Assembly: GCA_042571645.1 (NCBI GenBank)
Contig: JBHPFW010000004.1
Span: 20,430 to 84,429 of the forward strand
From: Nanobdellota archaeon
GTDB lineage: Archaea; Nanobdellota; Nanobdellia; Woesearchaeales; JBHPFW01
Direction of reading: 5' to 3'
Length of the DNA stretch: 64,000 bases
Positions 4,392-37,241 of this stretch are shown here, piece by piece. Numbering within the stretch: position 1 is the first letter of the stretch; each line of letters opens with the position of its first letter. A program made the position numbers and the translations under genes. The notes under the pieces were generated by a model. It ran no database searches and was not told where the DNA came from. It saw nothing but the letters and a program-made list of their open reading frames with translations.

Positions 4392-7052
4392 ATGAAAATT
4401 AAGAACGAGTCTAAAAAGAAAGGTTTTTCTTCATTATCATTGAAAAGGATATTAAATAAAAAAAATCTTATCATAGTGTCTGCTTTTTTTCTAATCGGTT
4501 TTTTTGTTGTCGGTGTCTTATTCGGCATTTTCATAACAGGATTTTTTGGTACATTTGACAATCCTTCAAGTAATGCAATCAAATTGATAAATTTTTTTGG
4601 ATTTTCACCAAGCATGGGCAGTCTGCAACTATTTATGAGGGATGTTATCTCAGAAAATATCTTTATCCCTGTTAATTTTATTAAGGGAGCTTTTTCAAAT
4701 CCTGAAAAGATGTATATTGATATAAGCTTCAAGAATTATGAGAAACTACTGCATAAAAGAGAACAAAGTTTGAAATTAGGTATTCTTTTTTCTTCAGAAG
4801 AGGATTATGTTCCTGCAAAAATTAGATTCAACGATCAAATTGTAGATGTAAAACTAAGGCTAAAAGGAGATGCCTTAGACCATATAAAAGGTGAAAGATG
4901 GTCTTTCAGAATAAAAGTTAAAGGCGACGAAACTCTTTTTGGTATGGAAGTCTTATCAATACAAGATCCAAAAACAAGGAACTTTTTAAATGAGTTTATT
5001 TTTCAAGAAGCATTAAGAAGAGAGGGAGTAATCTCACTAAGAACCAAATTTATAGAAGTTTTTATAAATGGAGAAAGCAGAGGAATATATGAATTAGAAG
5101 AACATTTTGATAAAAGATTGATTGAAAATAATAATCTCAGAGAAGGACCGATAATAAAATTTAATGAAGGGTTATTTTATGACAGAAAAGTTTTTGGACC
5201 TACAATAGAACAGAAGACAAATGCTAAAGACTCTTATTTTAACACAGACATAGATTCTTTTCAAACTAAAAGAATAATGAATGATTCTATTAAATATGAA
5301 CAATATCTAAAGGCGAAGAATCTCCTAGAATCCTTCCGACAAGGAAAGCTAAATTCAAGTGAAGTTTTTGATTTAGAAAAACAAACAAGATTTTTCGCGA
5401 TATCCGAACTTATGGATGCCCATCACGGATTACATTCTAATAATGTTAGGTATTATTATAATCCCGTGACTTCAAAACTCGAACCCATCGGTTTTGATGG
5501 CGACGCAGGAGAATGGAATCAAGACAAGATTTTTCTTACTGATAAATATACTCCATTTGTACAAAGATTCTTTAAAGACAATATCTTCTTTGAAACATAT
5601 ATAAAAGAGCTCAGAAGAGTTTCACAAAAATCATATCTTGATAAACTTTTTTCTGAAATAGATGAGGAACTTGAAGATAACCTGAACATCATACATAAAG
5701 AGTATCAAAGTTACCATTTCTCAAAAGAAGATTATTATAAAAATCAAGAAGACATAAGGAAATATCTAGAACCCATACAACCTCTGCAAGCTTATTTTTA
5801 TAAAAAAACCTCAAATAGCAGCCTAATCATTCAAATTGCAAATACGCAGGAAATTCCAATAAAAATTCGAGACCTGATTTATAAGGGAATAATATTGAGA
5901 ACAAAGAAGGATATCATAATGAACTCTAAGAAGATAGGCGACCCATTAAAATTCAGATATGTTGAATTCTTCTTCCCTGAGAATTTCGAATGGTCTGAGG
6001 ACATTATAAGAAATATTGAACTAAGTTATCAGATTATCGGAATAGATGAACTAAAAAAGACAAATGTATATCCCTGGGCGAGACTTGATGAAAACTTTAT
6101 AGAAAATGACTTTATTAGGAAAAAACCGAATATTAATGAATTTGATTTCTTAGCTATTGATGAATCTAAAAAAATAATACATATAAAAAAAGGTAGTTGG
6201 ATAATAGATAGAAACCTAATTATACCGCAGGGGTTTATTGTATCAAGCAATAAAGGAACAGTAATGGATCTTAAAAATAATTCAATCATACTTTCTTATT
6301 CACGCTTTAATATTAGTGGAACTAAAGAAGAACCAATAAAAATAGAATCTTCAGACGGGACTGGACAAGGAATAGCATTATTAAATACGGACGAAAATTC
6401 TATTTTAAAATATGTAATTTTTGACAATCTTGCAGCACCATCTTTTAACGGATGGGAACTTACAGGAGCAGTCACATTTTACGAGTCTCCTGTTTATCTC
6501 GAGTCTTGTCACTTCATTAACATCCGATCTGAAGATGCACTAAACATAATAAGGTCTTCATTTGCTATGAAAAACTCATTCTTCAATAACACACTGTCAG
6601 ATTGTTTTGATGGAGACTTTGTTAGTGGATCTATTGTGAAATCTTCATTTTTTGAATGCGGTAATGATGCTGTGGACTTATCAGGAAGCGAAATCAAGAT
6701 AGATGGCATCAAAATCATTGATGCAGGAGATAAGGGACTAAGTTTTGGAGAAAAAAGCAAATTGCAGGCAGAAGATGTCTTTATAAAAAATAGCTATATT
6801 GGCGTTGCCTCCAAAGATCAAAGCCAAGTGAAAATAAAAAACTTGAATATATCAAACTCAGAATATGGTATTGCGTCTTATGAAAAAAAATCAGAATTTG
6901 GACCTGCAAGTATCAACATAACAGGTGTTTTAGAGCTGAATGATATTAAAACAGGATTTATTTTAGAAAAAGGTTCGGAAATAGAAGTTAACGGAATAGG
7001 CATTAAAGATTTTCAAACCGAAGTCTATAAAAAATTATATCCTAACGAATAA
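4392..7052 (+). CDS. CotH-kinase-family protein with N-terminal TM anchor and C-terminal parallel-beta-helix-like repeats (copy 1)
   Basis: The N-terminal TM is LIIVSAFFLIGFFVVGVLFGIF. CotH-like core motifs are ERWSFRIKVKG and HSNNVRYYYNP...PIGFDGD. The C-terminal ~280 aa consist of short repeats rich in N/S/G/D. Confidence 0.75.
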   Translation: MKIKNESKKKGFSSLSLKRILNKKNLIIVSAFFLIGFFVVGVLFGIFITGFFGTFDNPSSNAIKLINFFGFSPSMGSLQLFMRDVISENIFIPVNFIKGAFSNPEKMYIDISFKNYEKLLHKREQSLKLGILFSSEEDYVPAKIRFNDQIVDVKLRLKGDALDHIKGERWSFRIKVKGDETLFGMEVLSIQDPKTRNFLNEFIFQEALRREGVISLRTKFIEVFINGESRGIYELEEHFDKRLIENNNLREGPIIKFNEGLFYDRKVFGPTIEQKTNAKDSYFNTDIDSFQTKRIMNDSIKYEQYLKAKNLLESFRQGKLNSSEVFDLEKQTRFFAISELMDAHHGLHSNNVRYYYNPVTSKLEPIGFDGDAGEWNQDKIFLTDKYTPFVQRFFKDNIFFETYIKELRRVSQKSYLDKLFSEIDEELEDNLNIIHKEYQSYHFSKEDYYKNQEDIRKYLEPIQPLQAYFYKKTSNSSLIIQIANTQEIPIKIRDLIYKGIILRTKKDIIMNSKKIGDPLKFRYVEFFFPENFEWSEDIIRNIELSYQIIGIDELKKTNVYPWARLDENFIENDFIRKKPNINEFDFLAIDESKKIIHIKKGSWIIDRNLIIPQGFIVSSNKGTVMDLKNNSIILSYSRFNISGTKEEPIKIESSDGTGQGIALLNTDENSILKYVIFDNLAAPSFNGWELTGAVTFYESPVYLESCHFINIRSEDALNIIRSSFAMKNSFFNNTLSDCFDGDFVSGSIVKSSFFECGNDAVDLSGSEIKIDGIKIIDAGDKGLSFGEKSKLQAEDVFIKNSYIGVASKDQSQVKIKNLNISNSEYGIASYEKKSEFGPASINITGVLELNDIKTGFILEKGSEIEVNGIGIKDFQTEVYKKLYPNE

Positions 7053-18141: not shown

Positions 18142-18257
18142 TTATTGAGACTGTCAGAGCGAGTGCCAACCAATTACAGTTGCATCTCGCAATCATGAGC
18201 ATTGACGCAAAAACAAGTGATAAACAAGGGCACTCTTGGCGCTGACAGTCTCAATAA
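18142..18257. repeat. 116 bp hairpin / inverted-repeat element (MITE-like or structured RNA)
   Basis: TTATTGAGACTGTCAG (18142-18157) is the exact reverse complement of 18242-18257 (16 bp). The helix extends through GC (18159-60 / 18239-40) and GAGTGCC/GGCACTC (18161-67 / 18229-35). The loop is 61 nt. Confidence 0.6.
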
Positions 18258-29906: not shown

Positions 29907-30620
29907 ATGGCTAAAAAGGTAACAAAGAAGACTACAGTCTCTAATTGGAAAAGAAAGCGTTGGTATAAGCTTATAGCTCCAAAGATCTTTAATGAGTCTT
30001 TTTTAGGTGAAACACCGGCTTTAGAAGCTTCTAGTTTGCTGGGTAGGACTGTAAAGGTTAATTTAATGAATCTGACTGGCGATATGAAAAAGCAGAATAT
30101 AAGTGTCACATTTAAGATTATAAGATTAGCTGCTGATAAAGCCCAAACAGAGCTCAAAAAATATGAAATGGGCTCTAGCAACCTGAAAAGGATTGTTAGA
30201 AGAGGCAAAGATAGGATAGATCAGTCTGTGATCTGTCAAACAAAGGATGGCAGAAGTGTAAGAATAAAGCCTTTGCTTCTCACAAGATCAAACACAACAG
30301 GTTTAAGATTAAGATCATTGCGTAAAGAGGTTTTAGCTATTATTGATGATGTTGTTAACACTATAACACTTGATGAATTAGCTCAGGATATTGTATCAAA
30401 TAAATTCCAGAAACATCTGAAGCAGATTTTGAGTAAAGTATATCCTTTGAGAATCTGTGATATCAGGATGTTAGTTGTATTAGATGAAGCTTCTCCTTCT
30501 GAGAAAAAAGAAGTAGTTGAAGGAGAAAAGTCTGAAGAACAAAAACCATTAGAAGTTAAAGAAGCTCCTGCAAAAGTTGAACCTCAAGCTGAAGCTCCTA
30601 AAGCTGCTGAAGCAAAATAA
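29907..30620 (+). CDS. rps3ae: 30S ribosomal protein S3Ae (eS1) with a K/E/A/P-rich C-terminal tail
   Basis: MAKKVTKKTTVSNWKRKRWYKLIAPKIFNE... is the typical S3Ae N-terminus. Confidence 0.9.
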   Translation: MAKKVTKKTTVSNWKRKRWYKLIAPKIFNESFLGETPALEASSLLGRTVKVNLMNLTGDMKKQNISVTFKIIRLAADKAQTELKKYEMGSSNLKRIVRRGKDRIDQSVICQTKDGRSVRIKPLLLTRSNTTGLRLRSLRKEVLAIIDDVVNTITLDELAQDIVSNKFQKHLKQILSKVYPLRICDIRMLVVLDEASPSEKKEVVEGEKSEEQKPLEVKEAPAKVEPQAEAPKAAEAK

Positions 30621-30726
30621 ATTCTGTAATATACTATTACCCACAATAGCTATTTCTAAATATGTTATCCTGTTGGTAAATACTTTTAAACGGATTGAAA
30701 ACTTCTGAATAAAAGACACTAATAAA

Positions 30727-30960
30727 ATGACATCAGATTATAATTTAAAAAAAGGCATGGAACAATATTGTCGTAATCAAAATTCAGGCGATCTTATTAG
30801 AGGATATCCTGACTTAGATGCAACAAGATGTGGTTCTTGTAATATAGCTCCTTATTGCACTCCTAAATACAATATAGTTACTGATCGTTTTCAACCAGCA
30901 CCAAAAGATATTCAAGCAGTTGATGCTGTAGATAGAATTTTGAGTCAGAGATTTTCTTAA
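30727..30960 (+). CDS. hypothetical small protein
   Basis: 77 aa ORF containing CGSCNIAPYC. No family recognised. Confidence 0.4.
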   Translation: MTSDYNLKKGMEQYCRNQNSGDLIRGYPDLDATRCGSCNIAPYCTPKYNIVTDRFQPAPKDIQAVDAVDRILSQRFS

Positions 30961-31007
30961 TATTAATATCAAAACCTTTTTATAACTCCTAATTATCCTT
31001 GTTTTCT

Positions 31008-31634
31008 ATGAAAAAGATATCTCAAGGTGCAGAAGCTACAATCCATTCAGATAAGAAAAAAGTAGTAAAGCACAGGACAAAGAAAACTTATCGTCATCCG
31101 GATATAGATGATAAACTAAGAAAATCCAGGACTAGGCGCGAAGCCAAAGTAATTGAGAAACTTTCTTCACTAAATTTTCCCGGTCCTAAGTTGCATGATG
31201 TTTGTGATGTTGAAATGAAAATTACAATGGATCATATTCACGGAGATAAATTAAGAGATTCTTTAGGTAAAGTAGAAAAAGAAAAAAAGATTTTTAGAAA
31301 GTTATCTAAAGAAATTGGCAAACTAGTTGCAAAATTGCATGACAATGACATTGTTCATGGTGATTTAACAACATCAAATATGATTTTGCATGAAGATCCC
31401 AAAAAAGGAATTTATTTTATTGATTTTGGCTTGAGCTTTTTCTCTTCAAGAGATGAAGACAAAGCAGTAGATTTACATTTACTAAAGCAAGCATTAGAAT
31501 CAAAACATCATAACATATTTGAAGAAGCATTTGATCATGTTCTAAAAGGCTATGGTGATTACAAGTTCTCTGGTAAAATAATTGATAGATTGAAGAAAGT
31601 AGAAGCCAGAGGCAGGAATAAAGGTAAGCATTAA
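31008..31634 (+). CDS. bud32: KEOPS-complex kinase Bud32
   Basis: Motifs ISQGAEA, HGDLTTSNMIL and IDFGLS. ATG 31008 lies ~24 nt downstream of the TATA box (TTTTTATAA, about 30977-30985), so I prefer it to TTG 30999. Confidence 0.85.
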   Translation: MKKISQGAEATIHSDKKKVVKHRTKKTYRHPDIDDKLRKSRTRREAKVIEKLSSLNFPGPKLHDVCDVEMKITMDHIHGDKLRDSLGKVEKEKKIFRKLSKEIGKLVAKLHDNDIVHGDLTTSNMILHEDPKKGIYFIDFGLSFFSSRDEDKAVDLHLLKQALESKHHNIFEEAFDHVLKGYGDYKFSGKIIDRLKKVEARGRNKGKH

Positions 31635-31672
31635 CCAAAATAAATTTAAATAGACGCGCTCTAAAGAACAAA

Positions 31673-32392
31673 ATGAGATCTGCTAACCCAGCTTTAAACA
31701 AAAACACCTTCGCGCACATATCACATCATCCACATGAAAGGATGACTCTAAACGGCACTGTCAATAAAACAATGATCCTGCTTATACTTCTTCTTTTCAC
31801 AGCATCTTTGACTTGGGGTTCTACTTTAGGAATTATGCTTATTTTTCCTGCAGCAATAATTGGTTTAATAGTAGCTATAATCACAGTATTTAAAAGAGAA
31901 TGGTCGCCAGTTACTGCACCAATCTATGCATTAGTTGAAGGTGCAATGCTTGGAGCATTATCTTCGTTTTTTGAGGCAATGTTTCCAGGAATAGTAATCC
32001 AAGCAGTACTCTTGACTTTTGGTATATTATTTAGTCTGTTATTTGCATACAAATCAAGATTAATCAAACCAACAGAAAATTTTAAGCTTGGAATTGTAGC
32101 AGCAACAGGAGGGATAGCATTAGTTTATATAATTAGTATGGTGCTTGGTTTTTTCGGTACACAAATACCTTTAATTCATGGTAGCGGCTGGGTTGGAATA
32201 GGCTTTAGTGTTTTTGTTGTAATCATTGCTTCACTGAATTTAGTTCTTGACTTTGATTTCATTGAAGACGGAGCAGAAAAAGGTGCACCAAAATACATGG
32301 AATGGTATGCTTCATTTGGTTTAATGGTAACATTAATATGGTTGTATATAGAAATTCTACATTTATTGTCTAAGTTAAGAAGTAGGAATTGA
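31673..32392 (+). CDS. Bax-inhibitor-1/YccA-like membrane protein
   Basis: MRSANPALNKNTF N-terminus followed by 6-7 TM helices, typical of this family. Confidence 0.7.
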   Translation: MRSANPALNKNTFAHISHHPHERMTLNGTVNKTMILLILLLFTASLTWGSTLGIMLIFPAAIIGLIVAIITVFKREWSPVTAPIYALVEGAMLGALSSFFEAMFPGIVIQAVLLTFGILFSLLFAYKSRLIKPTENFKLGIVAATGGIALVYIISMVLGFFGTQIPLIHGSGWVGIGFSVFVVIIASLNLVLDFDFIEDGAEKGAPKYMEWYASFGLMVTLIWLYIEILHLLSKLRSRN

Positions 32393-32488
32393 TTAATTAA
32401 TTCAAGACAGAAAATTTATTGTGCCTAACAAAGTTAGGTTTCCCGAACCTGTGAGGGTCGAGGATTTTTGCGAAGCAAAAACCGGAGA

Positions 32489-32522
32489 AATCAGATTTTC
32501 ACCTAAACTGGAGGCCGGCAAA
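32489..32522. repeat. left arm of a composite inverted repeat bracketing the 32538..33867 cassette
   Basis: AATCAGATTTTCACC (32489-32503) and GGAGGCCGGCAAA (32510-32522) are exact reverse complements of 34012-34026 and 33955-33967 respectively. Confidence 0.75.
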
Positions 32523-32537
32523 AACAAAAGTGATAGT

Positions 32538-33164
32538 TTATTCAGTCAAGATAAACTTTAATTCATTCTCAGCATCGGTTTGACCTTTAGCTGTCAAAAC
32601 TATCTCCTTAGATTTTTTATATCTACCCACATCAATCTGACTTGTCTTGACAAGATCATTTACAATCTGAGACACACTTCTTCCTTTGATTTTACTCAAA
32701 GAATAAGATTCTTTTAATTCTTCTAAGCTTATGCTAGTCTTTGATAAACCAATTTCAAATAAATATATCAAGCATCTTGTTGCTGTATTAGAACTTTTAA
32801 ACTTTGTAGAATCAAATAGTTGTGGTTTATCATCCTTGAAACCAAAAACGCTAGACCCTATTAATTTCTCTGCAGATATCCCTAATTTTCTAGAAATGTT
32901 TGTAACAGGTTCGCTCATATGCTCATAAGGGTGTTGAGGCTTACTCTGAGTTGAACTTGGTTCTGATACATCTGCTTTCTTTGCTACCTTGCCAAAAATC
33001 TTTTCAATTTTATTTCTTGATTTTTCTATTGCGTCTAAGAGTTCTATCATTTTATCTTCAATAGCACCTTTCTCAGCAAAGGTTTCCAACTCTGCTGTGA
33101 AAGCAGGCAACTCCACTTTCATACATATTTTTGTTTTTTCTTTTTCCATAATATCATCCTCCAT
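32538..33164 (-). CDS. hypothetical protein with N-terminal coiled coil, S/P/Q linker and C-terminal wHTH-like domain
   Basis: 208 aa. The start overlaps the stop of the upstream gene by 11 nt. The C-terminus ...SVSQIVNDLVKTSQIDVGRYKKSKEIVLTAKGQ looks like a winged helix. Confidence 0.6.
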   Translation of the reverse strand: MEDDIMEKEKTKICMKVELPAFTAELETFAEKGAIEDKMIELLDAIEKSRNKIEKIFGKVAKKADVSEPSSTQSKPQHPYEHMSEPVTNISRKLGISAEKLIGSSVFGFKDDKPQLFDSTKFKSSNTATRCLIYLFEIGLSKTSISLEELKESYSLSKIKGRSVSQIVNDLVKTSQIDVGRYKKSKEIVLTAKGQTDAENELKFILTE

Positions 33165-33867
33165 ATATATTTAATAGTTCATAAAATATATCTTGACCTT
33201 CATCTGTAAGGGTCCAATATCTCTTAGTTTCATCAAAATAGAATAAGTGAGAGTAAGTCCTCATGTAAGTTGTAACTTTTGAGGCTGTAAAATCTTTCTT
33301 AGATCCCATCTTCTTAATACAATTTACAATTTCTCTAGAATCTTTACATTGTGAAGTTGCTATTGCAGTAATTATAACATCTTTAAGGCTATTTAGCTGA
33401 TTAATTTTAATCCTCCTTTTTTCTTCCGTTTTCATAAGACTTTTAGGCTCTTTTATCATTTCTTGACAACTAATAGAGAATAAAGTATCAAAAATATGTA
33501 TAAGTAAATTAAAAAAGTCTAGGATCCCTTTATTAGTAATAGTCTTTCCGGAATCTTCATGATAAAGACCACAACGAATTACGTAAAAATAATCTATGCT
33601 TTCCCAAATTGACTTAGGAAAATTGGTTTTTTTCTTAACAATTTTGTGTAAAGCTTCCCTATTTCTTAAGGCATTCGGATCAATTTTTTTTATACCTTCT
33701 ATATAGGTAAGGTAATCTTTAAAACCGATTTCTAAGCCACTATCCAACAGTATAAGGGCTAGACGGTTTCTTCCCTCTATAGATGAATTTAATATAAGTT
33801 TAGCTCCCGTAAGAGTATCTATAATGCCATGAATCCAAGGCGTTTTGCTAATTTCGTTCTCATCCAT
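33154..33867 (-). CDS. HEPN-like (Rx4H) protein with C-terminal wHTH-like domain
   Basis: The all-alpha N-terminal ~130 aa contain RCGLYH (codons at 33559-33576), which fits the HEPN Rx4-6H motif. The C-terminus ...FYFDETKRYWTLTDEGQDIFYELL is winged-helix-like. Its own TATA box (TTTATAAA, minus strand) lies at about 33916-33923. Confidence applies to the CDS call, and the HEPN assignment is weaker (~0.4). Confidence 0.6.
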   Translation of the reverse strand: MDENEISKTPWIHGIIDTLTGAKLILNSSIEGRNRLALILLDSGLEIGFKDYLTYIEGIKKIDPNALRNREALHKIVKKKTNFPKSIWESIDYFYVIRCGLYHEDSGKTITNKGILDFFNLLIHIFDTLFSISCQEMIKEPKSLMKTEEKRRIKINQLNSLKDVIITAIATSQCKDSREIVNCIKKMGSKKDFTASKVTTYMRTYSHLFYFDETKRYWTLTDEGQDIFYELLNIYGG

Positions 33868-33954
33868 GAAATATCACATATTAATTTTCTTATTTTAGGG
33901 GGGAAAATAAAGCATTTATAAAATTTTCGGATATTTATACGAATAGTTAAACTA

Positions 33955-34026
33955 TTTGCCGGCCTCCAAAAGCATAATGCTTGCTTTTCAAGCAATATCC
34001 AATAAAATTCGGGTGAAAATCTGATT
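33955..34026. repeat. right arm of the composite inverted repeat (with a 44 nt insert carrying two small hairpins)
   Basis: TTTGCCGGCCTCC (33955-33967) and GGTGAAAATCTGATT (34012-34026). Between them lie the hairpins AAGCAT-A-ATGCTT and TTGCTT-TTC-AAGCAA. Confidence 0.75.
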
Positions 34027-34386
34027 GCACATAACGCCATATATACATTAAATTGAATATTTATGCTTTATAGGCGTTTGCTTTGTTGAATTCTTAATAT
34101 CATAAAGTAATTTTTAGTAACCCCTGCTAAGTTTGAAATCCAAACTCTTAAATACCTTTATAGCATCTTATTATTTGATACAAATGGCAAGAGTTGATTG
34201 TTTTCACTGTTAGCAAAGTCGATCTAGTCTTTATTAGCCAGAACTCTGCCCGTACTTCTTCAGGTTTTCATTGTCATTAGAGAATTCTCTGTCATTTACC
34301 TTAAAAACCATTAAATCATTTTTATTTTTAAATTAACACTAAATTCGGGCGTTTTAGTCTCTGAAAGTAGCGAAAAGGCTTACACA

Positions 34387-34420
34387 ATATTTAAAAAAAC
34401 AAAATACCCTCTGATGGAGG
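34387..34420 (+). promoter_or_regulatory. putative his-operon TATA box plus Shine-Dalgarno sequence
   Basis: ATATTTAAAA at 34387-34396 and GGAGG at 34416-34420, 7 nt before the hisI ATG. Confidence 0.4.
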
Positions 34421-34427
34421 TGGGGAA

Positions 34428-34808
34428 ATGGTTAAAATCAACTATGACAAGCTGAATGGCTTAATTCCAGCCGTTATACAGGATATAGACACAGATGAAG
34501 TGCTCATGCTTGGCTTTATGAATCAGGAAGCTTTAGATAAAACTCTAGAATCTGGAAAAACTTGGTTCTATAGCAGGTCTAAGCAGAGATTATGGCAGAA
34601 AGGAGAGCAGTCTGGCAATACACAGGAAGTTAAGGAAATTTTAGTAGATTGTGATGAAGACACAGTATTAGTCAAAGTCAAGCAAAAAGGTCCTGGATGC
34701 TGTCATGAAGGATATAAAAGTTGTTTCTTTAGAAAATTAGAAAATGGAGAATTAAAAACAATTGCTGAAAAAACTTACAAACCAGAAGAGGTGTATAAAA
34801 ATGATTAA
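34428..34808 (+). CDS. hisI: phosphoribosyl-AMP cyclohydrolase
   Basis: Motifs GLIPAVIQD, FYSRSKQRLWQKGEQSGN and CDEDTVL...GPGCCH. Confidence 0.9.
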   Translation: MVKINYDKLNGLIPAVIQDIDTDEVLMLGFMNQEALDKTLESGKTWFYSRSKQRLWQKGEQSGNTQEVKEILVDCDEDTVLVKVKQKGPGCCHEGYKSCFFRKLENGELKTIAEKTYKPEEVYKND

Positions 34809-35664
34809 ATTAGCAGTACCAAACAAAGGGAGATTATCAGATAAGACTGTTGCCATACTAAACAGGGCAGGTTTTAAATTCAATAACGTTACTAGAAGAT
34901 TATCTTCTAGAGTAAAAAATTATGACATGGAGATAATATTTGCCAGAGCTAGAGATATTCCTGAGTTTTTATCAAAAGGTACAGTTGATATGGGAATTAC
35001 AGGATTGGATGTTGTTTTTGAAAAGAAATCTGATGCAAGAAAGCTGCTTGATTTAGATTATGGCGGGTGCGAATTAGTTTTAGCTGCACCAAAAACAAAG
35101 AAGATAAAAACAATTGCAGAATTAAAAAAGATAAAAAATTCCAGAATAGCAACTTCTTTTCCGAATATAACCAAAACTTTTCTTGATTTGAATAAAGTAA
35201 AAGCAGAGATTATTGAGATGTCAGGAGCAGTAGAACTAGCCCCTAAGTTAGGTATAGCTGATGCAATTGTCGACTTAAGCAGTTCAGGGGAAACACTGAA
35301 GATAAATGATTTAGCTCCAGTCCAGACAATAATGGAGTCAACTGCTTGTTTATTTGCAAACAAAGATTCAATGAAAAAGAAAAAGGATGATGTTAACAGA
35401 GTAAAAACAGCATTGGACTCAGTGCTTTTTGCAGACGAAAAGAAATATTTGATGGCTAATATACCGAAAAAATCAATGGGCAAAGTAAAAACAATCATTC
35501 CAGGCTTAAGCAGCCCAACAATAATGCCATTAATGGGGACAGATGATCTTTTTGCAGTCCAAGCAGTGGTGGATGAAAAAGACACAGCAAATATTGTTGA
35601 GAAACTTAAGAAATTGGGAGCAACAGGAATATTGATTCTTAATATAGAACAATTGACCCCATGA
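34801..35664 (+). CDS. hisG: ATP phosphoribosyltransferase, long form with C-terminal regulatory domain
   Basis: MIKLAVPNKGRLS N-terminus, plus a HisG_C-like C-terminus. ATG 34801 overlaps the hisI stop. The track start at 34762 is probably too far upstream. Confidence 0.9.
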   Translation: MIKLAVPNKGRLSDKTVAILNRAGFKFNNVTRRLSSRVKNYDMEIIFARARDIPEFLSKGTVDMGITGLDVVFEKKSDARKLLDLDYGGCELVLAAPKTKKIKTIAELKKIKNSRIATSFPNITKTFLDLNKVKAEIIEMSGAVELAPKLGIADAIVDLSSSGETLKINDLAPVQTIMESTACLFANKDSMKKKKDDVNRVKTALDSVLFADEKKYLMANIPKKSMGKVKTIIPGLSSPTIMPLMGTDDLFAVQAVVDEKDTANIVEKLKKLGATGILILNIEQLTP

Positions 35665-35679
35665 CTTAATTGACAGTTT

Positions 35680-35967
35680 ATGGTGAAAGAAATGGAAATA
35701 CTAACCGAATTAGAAAAAGTCATTGAAGACAGAAAACAAAATCCAAAAGAAGGATCATACACAAACAAATTACTTGAAGATAAGAGTTTGTCTGAAAGAA
35801 AAGTTAGTGAGGAAAGTTTTGAAGTGATAGAAGCATCAAAAGACAATGACAAGAAACAAGTAATTTACGAGGCGGGAGATTTATTGTATCATTTATTGGT
35901 TTTGTTGAATAATAATGGAGTTAAATTAGAAGAAGTTGAGGAAGAACTGAAGAATAGAAGGAAATGA
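35680..35967 (+). CDS. hisE: phosphoribosyl-ATP pyrophosphatase
   Basis: Motifs GSYTNKLL, EESFEVIEA and EAGDLLYHLLVLL. Confidence 0.85.
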   Translation: MVKEMEILTELEKVIEDRKQNPKEGSYTNKLLEDKSLSERKVSEESFEVIEASKDNDKKQVIYEAGDLLYHLLVLLNNNGVKLEEVEEELKNRRK

Positions 35968-37241
35968 AGATGATTAAAACAATAAAATCAGACAACAACA
36001 AAGAGATTGAAGCTCTCAAAGAAAGAAAATCTGATTTAACTAGTGCAATCAAGATAGTTCAACCTATAATCAATGATGTCAAAAAGAACAAAGACAAGGC
36101 ATTAAAGAAATATGCAAAGAAGTTTGACAAAATTTCTCTCACCAAGATTGAAATTTCCAGAAGTAAAATTAAAGCAGCTTATAAGAAAGTAGATAAGAAA
36201 ATAATAACTGCACTAAAGCAAGCTGCAAAAAATATTGAAAAATACCACGAACTGCAGATGCCGAAAGAGTGGATGAAAGAAATCTCACCAGGAGTAAAAG
36301 CAGGAATTATTGTCAGGCCTCTTGAGAGTGTTGGTTGTTATGTTCCTGGGGGCAAATATCCTTTAATTTCATCTGTGTTAATGAATGCTTTGCCAGCAAA
36401 AGTGGCAGGAGTAAAAAATATCATAATATGCACGCCTAATCCAGTAGATGAAATACTAGCAGCAGCAGATATTGCTGGAGTTAGCAAAGTATTCCAAATT
36501 GGAGGAGCCCAGGCAATAGCAGCAATGGCTTATGGTACGGAAACTATTCCGAAAACAAATAAGATTGTCGGTCCTGGAAATGTTTTTGTAACAGCAGCAA
36601 AAAAACTAGTCTATGGGGATGTTGGTGTGGATTTTATTGCAGGACCGAGTGAAATATTAATAATAGCAGACAAAAACTCAGATCCTGAATTTATTGCAGC
36701 AGATATGTTAAGCCAAGCAGAGCATGATGAAGTTTCAGCGTCAATATTAATAACTCCTGCAAAGGAAATCCCTGGAAAGGTAAATAAGGAATTAAAGAAA
36801 CAATTAGCTAATCTATCAACAAAAAGAATTGCAGGTACTGCTCTAAAGAATAATGGAATAATTATACTTACTAAGGATATTGATGAATCTGTTAAAATCT
36901 CAAATAATATTGCACCAGAACACTTGGAGATAATGATTGATGATGAAAATACTCAGAAGAAAATATTGAAAAGGATAAATAATGCAGGTGCAGTCTTTGT
37001 CGGCAGTTACAGTGTAGAGGCAGCAGGAGACTATGCTTCTGGACCAAACCATGTACTGCCAACAGGCGGATTTGCAAAAGCAAGAGCAGGGCTAAGTATT
37101 GTGGATTTCATAAAAACACCAACAATACAAAAACTAAGCAAGCCAGGCTTAAAAGCTTTAGAAAAAACAATAACAACTATAGCAGAAGCAGAAGGCCTAA
37201 TAGCGCACTCAAACTCTGCCAAAATAAGATTCAAAAAATAG
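35964..37241 (+). CDS. hisD: histidinol dehydrogenase
   Basis: Motifs GPGNVFVTAAK, SQAEHD and IAPEHLE. Confidence 0.9.
   Translation: MKMIKTIKSDNNKEIEALKERKSDLTSAIKIVQPIINDVKKNKDKALKKYAKKFDKISLTKIEISRSKIKAAYKKVDKKIITALKQAAKNIEKYHELQMPKEWMKEISPGVKAGIIVRPLESVGCYVPGGKYPLISSVLMNALPAKVAGVKNIIICTPNPVDEILAAADIAGVSKVFQIGGAQAIAAMAYGTETIPKTNKIVGPGNVFVTAAKKLVYGDVGVDFIAGPSEILIIADKNSDPEFIAADMLSQAEHDEVSASILITPAKEIPGKVNKELKKQLANLSTKRIAGTALKNNGIIILTKDIDESVKISNNIAPEHLEIMIDDENTQKKILKRINNAGAVFVGSYSVEAAGDYASGPNHVLPTGGFAKARAGLSIVDFIKTPTIQKLSKPGLKALEKTITTIAEAEGLIAHSNSAKIRFKK

What the first reader, a model, noticed from the sequence alone, without database searches (positions are those of the whole stretch)
32489..34026. 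Two-gene HEPN-like plus wHTH cassette bracketed by long perfect inverted repeats: candidate novel defence, TA or mobile module
A 1.43 kb segment on the opposite strand to both neighbours is enclosed by a composite inverted repeat. The 15 bp pair is AATCAGATTTTCACC / GGTGAAAATCTGATT, and the 13 bp pair is GGAGGCCGGCAAA / TTTGCCGGCCTCC. The spacers are 6 nt on the left and 44 nt on the right. Inside, behind its own TATA box, are two overlapping ORFs. The first (237 aa) has an all-alpha N-domain carrying RCGLYH, which fits the Rx4-6H catalytic motif of HEPN RNases found in Abi, TA and CRISPR-accessory systems. The second (208 aa) has a coiled coil and a linker. Both end in winged-helix-like domains with a similar ...LT..GQ... 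wing (YWTLTDEGQ and IVLTAKGQ). No transposase, integrase or MNT-type antitoxin is present, so the cassette matches neither a standard IS nor a standard HEPN-MNT pair. My inference is a toxin/regulator or abortive-infection-like pair whose wHTH domains may recognise the flanking repeats. The repeats may mediate inversion or mobilisation, or form a long RNA or DNA stem.
Basis: partly seen in the sequence, partly recalled or inferred. Interest (0 to 1): 0.75.

Follow-up and report, generated by a model that had tools for sequence, protein, structure and literature searches.

The report
HEPN RNase plus winged-helix partner cassette
A small two-gene module in a DPANN archaeon encodes a predicted HEPN-type RNase and a winged-helix partner protein from an undescribed toxin/defence-like family, and only in this genome is it bracketed by a nested perfect inverted repeat whose origin is still unexplained.

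Summary
Perfect inverted repeats of 15 nt (32489-32503 / 34012-34026) and 14 nt (32509-32522 / 33955-33968) bracket two overlapping minus-strand genes. The genes lie between a BaxI-like gene and the his operon of a Nanoarchaeota (Nanobdellota) MAG.

ORF1 (237 aa) is a HEPN domain followed by a winged helix. R98/H103 (Rx4H) lie at the end of predicted helix 3, and E46x3K50 lies in helix 2. R35, D42, E46, R98 and H103 are invariant in 33 diverse relatives. Foldseek ranks HEPN structures among the top hits, though none is significant.

ORF2 (203-208 aa) has a beta-hairpin plus helix, a disordered linker and a MarR/AF1382-like winged helix.

The gene pair recurs in at least 8 other loci. Its neighbours there differ and are R-M, Fic, Schlafen, MazE, integrase or transposase genes. 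No Pfam, NCBIfam, PADLOC or PHROG model matches either protein.

None of those loci has flanking inverted repeats, so the repeats belong to this locus and not to the system. No second copy, target-site duplication, transposase or empty site was found.

Best reading: an undescribed HEPN toxin/effector plus wHTH antitoxin-like module, inserted here as a discrete 1.5 kb unit. The repeats may be ends of a non-autonomous mobile cassette. Moderately interesting; a new variant of a known kind.

The parts
32489..32503 (.). Outer inverted-repeat arm, left (AATCAGATTTTCACC)
   Evidence: Perfect 15-nt complement of 34012-34026. No other copy in the window.
32509..32522 (.). Inner inverted-repeat arm, left (TGGAGGCCGGCAAA), GC-rich, with the internal palindrome GCCGGC
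   Evidence: Perfect 14-nt complement of 33955-33968. No other copy in the window.
32520..32533 (-). T-run directly after the ORF2 stop codon (CTTTTGTTTTT on the minus strand); likely archaeal terminator of the cassette
   Evidence: Read from the sequence. The function is inferred from general knowledge that archaeal termination uses oligo-T tracts.
32538..33164 (-). ORF2, the partner protein (208 aa; more likely 203 aa from the ATG at 33149). Beta-hairpin plus helix (aa 10-57), disordered linker (aa 59-80), conserved FGFKxxKPQxFD hairpin, C-terminal winged helix (aa ~120-207).
   Evidence: - ORF.
- Homologues always lie downstream of an ORF1 homologue.
- AF2 pLDDT 77.
- Foldseek hits to MarR/PefR, AF1382 (TM 0.75), SSV1 F-93 and AspA.
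- Weak Pfam wHTH hits.
33154..33420 (-). ORF1 C-terminal winged-helix domain (aa ~150-237)
   Evidence: AF2 model shows H-H-H-beta-beta-H. Foldseek hits to PadR, MarR and the HrcA N-domain.
33463..33867 (-). ORF1 N-terminal HEPN domain (aa 1-135). R98 is at 33574-33576, H103 at 33559-33561, and E46/K50 at 33730-32 and 33718-20.
   Evidence: - R35, D42, E46, R98 and H103 are invariant in 33 diverse homologues.
- The R[NC]xLxH motif is present in nearly all of the 150 listed hits.
- The motif lies at the end of predicted helix 3, as defined in PMC3710099.
- HEPN structures are among the top Foldseek hits.
33913..33939 (-). BRE/TATA-like promoter elements (CGAAAATTTTATAAATG and TATAAATAT), 50-70 nt upstream of the ORF1 ATG
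   Evidence: Read from the sequence. Inferred; not tested.
33942..33956 (.). Perfect 15-bp palindrome AATAGTTAAACTATT between the inner repeat arm and the promoter; candidate operator
   Evidence: The function is inferred.
33955..33968 (.). Inner inverted-repeat arm, right (TTTGCCGGCCTCCA)
33969..34011 (-). 43-nt spacer present only in the right arm. It holds a terminator-like hairpin plus T-run on the minus strand (33978-33994).
   Evidence: Its sequence is unrelated to the 5-6 nt left spacer.
34012..34026 (.). Outer inverted-repeat arm, right (GGTGAAAATCTGATT)

Best explanation
The cassette is a self-contained two-gene conflict module of an undescribed family.

ORF1 is a HEPN-superfamily, metal-independent RNase with its own C-terminal winged helix. 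It is the predicted toxin or effector.

ORF2 is translationally coupled to ORF1. It is a partner protein whose N-terminal beta-hairpin/helix and conserved central hairpin would bind and mask the HEPN dimer. Its C-terminal MarR-like winged helix would bind nucleic acid, either for autoregulation or for sensing. In other words, it is a type II-like antitoxin or sensor.

Loss or displacement of ORF2, for example on infection or on loss of the element, would free the RNase to cleave cellular RNA and arrest growth.

The module moves horizontally. In this genome it sits as a 1.5 kb insertion between housekeeping genes. The nested perfect inverted repeats mark the limits of that insertion and are not a component of the system. 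Most likely they are the ends of a non-autonomous, transposase-less mobile cassette (MIC-like).

Shown: the domains, the catalytic motif, conservation of the pair, the variable defence/MGE contexts, and the absence of repeats in relatives.

Inferred: RNase activity, toxicity, neutralisation by ORF2, and the origin of the repeats.
For: HEPN assignment:
- AF2 (pLDDT 81) predicts a four-helix domain with an insert between helices 2 and 3.
[quoted passage not shown] E46x3K50 lies in helix 2. Both match the defining description in PMC3710099.
- R35, D42, E46, R98 and H103 are invariant in 33 diverse domains.
- R[NC]xLxH is present in nearly all of the 150 listed representative hits.
- HEPN structures (8yuf, 8xdj, 4nqf, 8xeh, 1wol, 1o3u, 1wwp, 1wty, 1ylm) are interleaved with wHTH hits at the top of Foldseek.
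- The best-matching families in the per-member Pfam scan include four HEPN-type families: RiboL-PSP, DUF3644, DUF4145 and NTase_sub_bind (status from PMC3710099, or the Pfam name). All are sub-threshold and single-member apart from RiboL-PSP.

Partner protein:
- ORF2 has a wHTH with TM 0.64-0.75 to AF1382, F-93 and AspA.
- It is always immediately downstream of ORF1, abutting or overlapping it. This holds even for distant pairs (E 2e-14 and 1e-10).

Conflict context:
- Neighbours in other loci are an IS66-like transposase plus N6 MTase plus ResIII, Fic, integrase plus PDDEXK, MvaI/BcnI REase, SLFN_AlbA_2 plus MazE, and an N6 MTase plus deaminase-HATPase_c_4.
- The same HEPN domain is fused to GHKL ATPases, TPR and Mrr-like domains. 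One GHKL-HEPN fusion lies inside a dnd-like cluster.

Precedent:
- In the type IX retron, the HEPN gene is toxic alone and the adjacent WH protein wraps around the HEPN and neutralises it.

Repeats:
- They are real and nested.
- They bracket the promoter-to-terminator unit exactly.
- They are absent from 8 related loci.
- The flanking genes are housekeeping.
Against: - No HEPN Pfam or PDB match reaches significance. The best Pfam E-value is 0.0016, Foldseek E-values are above 0.1, and the PDB profile search found nothing relevant.
- The position after R98 is Cys in this protein, not the typical polar N/D/H. Asn is common in relatives.
- Toxicity and neutralisation are untested. The gene order is toxin first, which is the less common order for type II TA.
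- ORF1's own wHTH has no assigned role.
- For the mobile-cassette reading: there is no target-site duplication although the arms are perfect. No second copy was found in the window or in IMG/VR. The 11 JGI metagenome hits are chance matches inside GC-rich coding sequence. No transposase was found, and GC content does not differ (31% vs 33%).
- The two arms differ by a complete spacer replacement (5 vs 43 nt), which is unusual for simple terminal inverted repeats.
Confidence: 0.6

Rival explanations
1. The cassette inserted into the apex of a pre-existing imperfect palindrome (a long intergenic hairpin) between the BaxI-like gene and hisI. The repeat arms would then be host sequence, not the ends of the element.
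For: - There is no target-site duplication and no second copy anywhere searched.
- Each arm contains small internal palindromes, and the flanks are rich in hairpins.
- Joining the arms would give a roughly 110-nt stem with an internal loop.
Against: - No such palindrome was seen downstream of BaxI homologues in the two nearest archaeal genomes, and synteny is not conserved there.
- No known RNA family or tRNA emerges when the insert is removed in silico.
- Long perfect palindromes are not a known feature of archaeal intergenic regions (general knowledge).
Confidence: 0.15
2. The repeats are operator or architectural sites bound by the cassette's own winged-helix proteins. This would loop or insulate the operon.
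For: - There are two wHTH proteins.
- Perfect blocks with completely different spacers suggest selection on the blocks rather than neutral duplication.
- The blocks contain dyad-symmetric cores, and a separate 15-bp palindrome abuts the promoter.
Against: - None of 8 homologous cassettes has flanking inverted repeats of 12 nt or more in a nested arrangement, so it cannot be a family property.
- One site set lies downstream of the terminator.
Confidence: 0.08
3. The segment is an invertible DNA element (inverton), or the arms form a long-range RNA stem used for processing or circularisation of a transcript.
For: Inverted repeats flank a segment whose orientation is opposite to both neighbours. 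A read-through + strand transcript would contain both arms.
Against: - No recombinase was recognised among the ORFs listed for 30000-37000; only five of them were scanned against Pfam.
- The promoter is inside the segment and would move with the genes, so inversion would not switch expression.
- The arms lie outside the predicted mRNA.
- The stem has 5x43 and 11x0 loops, not a bulge-helix-bulge motif.
- There is no Rfam hit.
Confidence: 0.05
4. The pair is not a toxin system. It would be a housekeeping RNA-processing or regulatory pair, with the HEPN domain acting as a non-toxic RNA-binding or processing domain and the two wHTH proteins acting as regulators.
For: HEPN domains also occur in non-toxic RNA-processing proteins (PMC3710099). 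Here the pair sits among housekeeping genes.
Against: - The distribution is patchy and rare. Only 6-9 close homologues were found among 5.8 billion proteins.
- The genomic contexts vary and are dominated by R-M, TA and mobile-element genes.
- The catalytic residues are strictly conserved.
- The domain is fused to defence-type ATPases.
Confidence: 0.1

Closest known systems
Type IX retron effector pair (HEPN nuclease + WH protein, Retron-Kva2; bioRxiv 10.64898/2026.07.14.738597)
   Same: - Adjacent genes, listed by the paper in the order HEPN, WH.
- The partner has N-terminal HEPN-binding domains and a C-terminal HTH/winged helix.
- HEPN alone is toxic, and WH alone mitigates the toxicity.
   Different: - No reverse transcriptase or retron ncRNA is present in the window or in any related locus.
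- The retron HEPN lacks the canonical Rx4-6H motif, whereas this one has it.
- No PADLOC model matched either protein.
- ORF1 carries its own wHTH.
HEPN-MNT type II/VII toxin-antitoxin systems
   Same: A HEPN RNase toxin with an Rx4-6H motif sits in a compact two-gene operon that moves horizontally. Solved HEPN-MNT toxins are among the best structural matches (8yuf, 8xdj, 8xeh).
   Different: - The partner is not a nucleotidyltransferase, and no NTP_transf_2 or Polbeta hit was found.
- The HEPN gene comes first.
- The HEPN is fused to a wHTH.
- There is no significant sequence match to DUF86 or HEPN Pfam models.
HEPN families of R-M/Abi contexts in Anantharaman et al. 2013 (e.g. EC042_2821/DUF3644 with wHTH fusions, RiboL-PSP-HEPN, DUF4145)
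   Same: - Rx4H with N after the R in many members.
- Ex3K in helix 2.
- Fusion to wHTH and to ATPases.
- Location next to R-M genes.
   Different: Only sub-threshold matches (E 0.0016-0.03) by single members. The family has no Pfam, NCBIfam or PADLOC model.
Mobile insertion cassettes (MICs) / cargo-carrying MITE-like elements (e.g. PMC5444012, PMC6542083)
   Same: Inverted repeats bracket passenger genes, and the element carries no transposase.
   Different: There is no target-site duplication, no second copy and no cognate IS. The arms are composite, with unequal spacing.

Membership tests
HEPN superfamily | [quoted passage not shown] | tested here: met
   The AF2 model has helices at 10-26, 33-56, [64-68, 70-80 as the insert], 85-101 and 112-130. 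HEPN structures are among the top Foldseek hits: TM normalised to target 0.45-0.61, probability 0.4-0.94 (0.69 or more for all but 1ylm and 1o3u), but E-values above 0.1. This is evidence from prediction only.
HEPN superfamily | [quoted passage not shown] | tested here: met
   R98-CGLY-H103 lies at the end of helix 85-101. It is invariant in A1 and A3 and present in nearly all 150 listed hits. Definition.
HEPN superfamily | Polar residue (N/D/H) immediately after the conserved Arg | tested here: inconclusive
   This protein and many close relatives have Cys. Asn is common across the wider family as R-N-x-L-x-H.
HEPN superfamily | Conserved acidic residue in helix 2, typically within Ex3[KR] | tested here: met
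   E46-IGF-K50 lies in helix 33-56. E46 is invariant in 33 diverse domains.
HEPN superfamily | Significant profile match to an established HEPN family or solved HEPN structure | tested here: inconclusive
   Only weak hits from single members: DUF3644 0.0016, RiboL-PSP 0.0053, DUF4145 0.0069, NTase_sub_bind 0.029. The profile search of PDB sequences found no HEPN.
HEPN superfamily | Metal-independent endoribonuclease activity | not testable with these tools
   Needs biochemistry.
Type II toxin-antitoxin / abortive-infection two-gene module | Two small, co-oriented, abutting or overlapping genes kept together in unrelated genomic contexts | tested here: met
   The pair is conserved in L001-L009, L101, L102 and L104 with different neighbours.
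Type II toxin-antitoxin / abortive-infection two-gene module | Toxicity of one product, neutralised by the other | not testable with these tools
   Needs expression assays.
HEPN-MNT toxin-antitoxin | Adjacent minimal nucleotidyltransferase (MNT) antitoxin | tested here: not met
   ORF2 and its homologues have no nucleotidyltransferase match. They fold as a wHTH protein.
Type IX retron | Reverse transcriptase and msr/msd ncRNA next to the HEPN and WH genes | tested here: not met
   No RT domain was found among the neighbours in any locus. The window has no Rfam hit.
Insertion sequence / mobile insertion cassette | Terminal inverted repeats at both ends | tested here: met
   15-nt and 14-nt perfect blocks.
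Insertion sequence / mobile insertion cassette | Target-site duplication flanking the repeats | tested here: not met
   The flanks are ...CCGGAGA on the left and GCACATA... on the right. No direct repeat is present.
Insertion sequence / mobile insertion cassette | Further copies, or a cognate transposase-bearing element with the same ends | tested here: not met
   None in the 64 kb window, in IMG/VR or in JGI metagenomes, where the hits are chance matches in GC-rich coding sequence. The rest of the genome could not be searched.
Invertible DNA segment (inverton) | Site-specific recombinase nearby and both orientations present in the population | tested here: inconclusive
   No recombinase was recognised among the ORFs listed for 30000-37000; only five of them were scanned against Pfam. 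Orientation in reads cannot be tested here.
Archaeal bulge-helix-bulge intron / split RNA gene | BHB motif at the junctions and a recognisable RNA gene once the insert is removed | tested here: not met
   The loops are 5x43 and 11x0 nt, not 3-nt bulges 4 bp apart. ARAGORN at its default threshold finds no tRNA in four spliced variants; only at a lowered threshold does it return low-scoring calls with long introns, in native and spliced sequence alike. There are no Rfam hits.

The most novel reading that the evidence does not exclude
The HEPN-wHTH plus wHTH-partner pair is a previously unrecognised stand-alone abortive-infection or toxin-antitoxin system, shared across phylogenetically diverse genomes. 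It would be mechanistically akin to the HEPN-WH effector core of type IX retrons but would work without RT or msDNA. In this DPANN genome it would additionally be packaged as a transposase-less, inverted-repeat-bounded mobile cassette. That would be a first example of a MIC-like defence cassette in Nanoarchaeota.
Probability: 0.25. Interest if true: 0.6.

Novelty: new variant of a known kind. Interest (0 to 1): 0.45.

Why it matters
DPANN archaea carry few recognisable defence systems and are reported to favour compact ones (PMC12988326). This would be a compact two-gene HEPN module with no model in Pfam, NCBIfam, PADLOC or PHROGs.

It would add a family to the archaeal and bacterial defence/TA inventory. 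It would also provide a minimal version, free of RT and msDNA, of the HEPN-WH inhibition seen in type IX retrons.

The same HEPN domain sits at the C-terminus of many GHKL ATPases, including one in a dnd-like cluster. A biochemical handle on it would therefore inform a larger set of uncharacterised systems.

If the repeat-bounded packaging proves to be mobile, it would show how such cassettes reach housekeeping regions of streamlined genomes.

Tried and rejected
1. Split or intron-containing tRNA or other RNA gene, prompted by the GC-rich complementary 14-mers in a Nanoarchaeota genome.
   - ARAGORN finds no tRNA in the window.
   - At its default threshold it finds none in four in-silico spliced variants. 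At a lowered threshold it returns only low-scoring calls with very long introns, in native and spliced sequence alike.
   - Rfam gives nothing at gathering or E<=10 beyond noise.
   - The flanks do not fold better than shuffles (z -1.1 and -1.9).

2. Other copies of the repeat unit.
   - None in the window, the fetched loci or IMG/VR.
   - The JGI metagenome scan returned 11 hits, all inside GC-rich coding sequences and unrelated.

3. Empty site or synteny.
   - The BaxI-like protein is widespread, and the nearest genomes (66% and 65% identity) have different downstream genes.
   - A faint resemblance downstream of BaxI in L010 did not survive alignment or Rfam.
   - Exact-sequence look-ups of ORF1, HisI and BaxI found no other contig.

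4. Flanking repeats in homologous cassettes: none.

5. Homology between the two wHTH domains: none detectable.

6. Viral origin.
   - No relatives in IMG/VR by the pattern/tblastn scan.
   - No significant BFVD fold match.
   - No PHROG.

7. Known defence models: no convincing PADLOC, NCBIfam or Pfam hit.
Full report
**Observation**

The window region 32489-34026 contains two perfect inverted repeats in nested, colinear order.
- The outer pair is AATCAGATTTTCACC (32489-32503) and its complement (34012-34026), 15 nt.
- The inner pair is TGGAGGCCGGCAAA (32509-32522) and its complement (33955-33968).
- The spacers between the blocks are 5 nt on the left and 43 nt on the right, and they are unrelated in sequence.
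- A possible third block (ATAGTTTA, 32533-40 and 33948-55) lies 11 nt inside the left inner arm and abuts the right one. It is short enough to be chance.

A single perfect inverted repeat of 14 nt or more within 3 kb is not rare in this 33% GC window. There are about 7 distinct repeats, or 13 14-mer pairs, against a mean of 3.4 in Markov simulations. A nested pair, one block of which is GC-rich, is not plausibly chance. Neither block recurs in the 64 kb window beyond chance-level hits with 2-3 mismatches.

**Anatomy**

Between the arms lie two minus-strand genes.
- ORF1 is 33154-33867, 237 aa.
- ORF2 is 32538-33164, 208 aa. The more likely start is the ATG at 33149, which is preceded by GGAGGA. 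This gives 203 aa and is the start NCBI uses.
- On the minus strand the order is: outer arm, 43-nt spacer with a terminator-like hairpin, inner arm, a perfect 15-bp palindrome (33942-33956), BRE/TATA-like elements (33913-33939), ORF1, ORF2, a T-run directly after the stop codon (32520-32533), inner arm, outer arm.

The arms therefore bracket a complete promoter-to-terminator unit and are not expected to be part of its mRNA. This is an inference from the sequence.

Both neighbours are on the + strand and are housekeeping genes. Upstream are ribosomal protein S3Ae-like (identified by eye only), a Bud32/RIO-type kinase and a BaxI-like membrane protein. Downstream are hisI (Pfam) and genes I read by eye as hisG, hisE and hisD. 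The contig belongs to an NCBI 'Nanoarchaeota archaeon' MAG, phylum Nanobdellota. The cassette's GC content (31%) does not differ from that of the flanks (33%).

**ORF1**

No Pfam, NCBIfam, PADLOC or PHROG model matches ORF1.

AlphaFold2 on six homologues (pLDDT 81) predicts three parts:
- an N-terminal helical domain with helices at 10-26, 33-56, 85-101 and 112-130;
- a helical insert at 64-80;
- a C-terminal helix-helix-helix-beta-beta-helix winged helix.

A HMMER profile search of 1.8 billion cluster representatives found 242 relatives at E<=1e-3. Most share only the N-domain.

In an alignment of 33 diverse N-domains, only R35, D42, E46, R98 and H103 are invariant. The motif R-[N/C]-x-L-x-H occurs in nearly all of the 150 listed hits.

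Anantharaman et al. 2013 define the HEPN active site as follows:
- usually a polar residue after the R;
- a conserved acidic residue in helix 2 within an Ex3[KR] motif;
- an insert between helices 2 and 3.

ORF1 meets all of these except that Cys follows R98 in this protein. Asn is common in the family.

Foldseek against the PDB interleaves HEPN proteins with PadR/MarR winged helices at the top of the list. The HEPN hits include the HEPN-MNT toxins 8yuf, 8xdj and 8xeh, plus 4nqf, 1wol, 1o3u, 1wwp and 1wty. No hit has E<0.1.

Single members of the alignment give weak Pfam hits to four HEPN-type families: RiboL-PSP-HEPN, DUF3644, DUF4145 and NTase_sub_bind. Three of these are named as HEPN families in the paper.

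I take the HEPN assignment as well supported, at about 85-90%, but not formally proven.

**ORF2**

AF2 (pLDDT 77) predicts the following:
- a beta-hairpin (10-31) plus a long helix (32-57);
- a disordered linker (59-80);
- two short helices;
- a strongly conserved hairpin (FGFKxxKPQxFD);
- a winged helix.

The winged helix matches MarR/PefR, AF1382 (TM 0.75, rmsd 2.8 A), SSV1 F-93 and the pNOB8 centromere-binding protein AspA. Weak Pfam hits are to wHTH families.

The two winged helices, one in ORF1 and one in ORF2, are not detectably related to each other.

**Conservation and context**

The ORF1-ORF2 pair is kept together, abutting or overlapping, in every related locus examined.
- L001: next to an IS66/rve-type transposase, an N6 methyltransferase and a ResIII helicase.
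- L002: near Fic and an AAA ATPase.
- L003/L004: next to an integrase-like gene and a PDDEXK nuclease.
- L006: directly after an MvaI/BcnI restriction endonuclease.
- L007/L008: on a 769 kb and a 77 kb contig.
- L101: next to SLFN_AlbA_2 and MazE.
- L102: between HTH genes.
- L104: directly after an N6 methyltransferase and before a deaminase-HATPase_c_4 protein.

The partners of distant ORF1 homologues are still ORF2 homologues (E 2e-14 and 1e-10).

Among the 150 best representatives, the architectures are as follows:
- 18 have the full HEPN+wHTH architecture.
- 29 are proteins of 450 aa or more with the HEPN domain at the C-terminus. Those tested carry an N-terminal HATPase_c_3 GHKL ATPase.
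- Others are fused to TPR or Mrr-like domains.

One GHKL-HEPN protein lies inside a dnd-like cluster. This is the signature of a conflict-system effector domain. No relative was found in IMG/VR or BFVD.

**The repeats are specific to this locus**

None of eight homologous cassettes has nested flanking inverted repeats, and none contains the 15-mer or the 13-mer core of the inner repeat.

The unit was not found in IMG/VR. The 11 JGI metagenome matches lie in GC-rich coding sequences and are unrelated.

The nearest genomes with a BaxI homologue are not syntenic. Exact-protein look-ups found no sister contig. No empty site could therefore be recovered.

There is no target-site duplication. No recombinase or transposase was recognised among the ORFs listed for 30000-37000, only five of which were scanned against Pfam. 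Whatever the repeats do, it is not a conserved property of the gene family.

The blocks are perfect while the spacers are entirely different. This argues that the blocks themselves are the functional or recently copied units. It fits element ends with terminal and subterminal binding sites better than a neutral inverted duplication.

**Mechanism proposed**

ORF1 is a HEPN RNase toxin or effector. ORF2 is translationally coupled to it, binds it and holds it inactive. One or both winged helices bind nucleic acid, for autoregulation (candidate operator: the 33942-33956 palindrome) or for sensing.

The closest functional precedent is the type IX retron Retron-Kva2. There the HEPN is toxic alone, and the adjacent WH protein wraps it with N-terminal HEPN-binding domains. 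The WH protein carries a C-terminal HTH and alone mitigates toxicity.

That system needs an RT and msDNA, and its HEPN lacks the canonical motif. Here there is no RT or ncRNA, and the motif is canonical. This is therefore a 'works like' comparison, not membership. HEPN-MNT membership fails because ORF2 is not a nucleotidyltransferase.

For the repeats, I rank four readings:
- ends of a non-autonomous mobile cassette (MIC-like), about 0.3;
- insertion into a pre-existing palindrome, about 0.15;
- operator sites, about 0.08;
- inversion or an RNA stem, about 0.05.

The remainder is unexplained.

**Verdict**

The HEPN, wHTH and TA-like reading is supported, and the pair extends to a recurrent, previously unmodelled gene-pair family. 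The proposed functional link between the cassette's proteins and the repeats is not supported.

The novelty is a new variant within the known kind 'HEPN-based toxin/defence modules'. Interest is moderate.

Noticed in passing
window 1-64000: ARAGORN finds no tRNA gene and Rfam gives no hit at gathering thresholds in the whole 64 kb. This may reflect divergent or intron-rich DPANN RNA genes, or simply a gene-dense coding stretch.
   Followed up: partly
window 18142-18157 and 18242-18257: A perfect 16-nt inverted repeat (TTATTGAGACTGTCAG) has its arms about 85 nt apart. It is unrelated in sequence to the cassette repeats. It could be a structured RNA or a small hairpin element.
   Followed up: no
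L106 5001-6581 (GCA_004340805.1, SMGS01000002.1) and proteins P0036, P0047 etc.: The HEPN domain of ORF1's family forms the C-terminus of many GHKL (HATPase_c_3) ATPases of about 525 aa. One of these sits inside a dnd-like cluster with PAPS_reduct, AAA_23, a DndE fusion and Aminotran_5. No PADLOC model matches these proteins.
   Followed up: partly
L001 ~5975-6000, L002 ~5980-6000, L003 2880-2901: A conserved motif, TGTTAAAAnTnAATTGRTT, lies directly upstream of the ORF1 start codon in three related cassettes but not in the window. It may be a shared operator or 5' leader.
   Followed up: no
window 34027-34427: A 400-nt stretch between the right repeat arm and hisI has no ORF of 30 aa or more and no Rfam hit. 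It might be degraded remains of a larger insertion or the his promoter region.
   Followed up: partly
window 33942-33956: A perfect 15-bp palindrome, AATAGTTAAACTATT, lies between the inner right repeat arm and the BRE/TATA-like elements. It is a candidate operator for one of the winged-helix proteins.
   Followed up: no
window 32424-32481: The 3' flank of the BaxI-like gene contains three short hairpins: CCTAAC-AAA-GTTAGG, GGTT-TCCCG-AACC and TTTTTGC-GAA-GCAAAAA. The overall fold is not better than shuffles (z -1.1). The last hairpin plus its T-run may be the BaxI terminator.
   Followed up: partly
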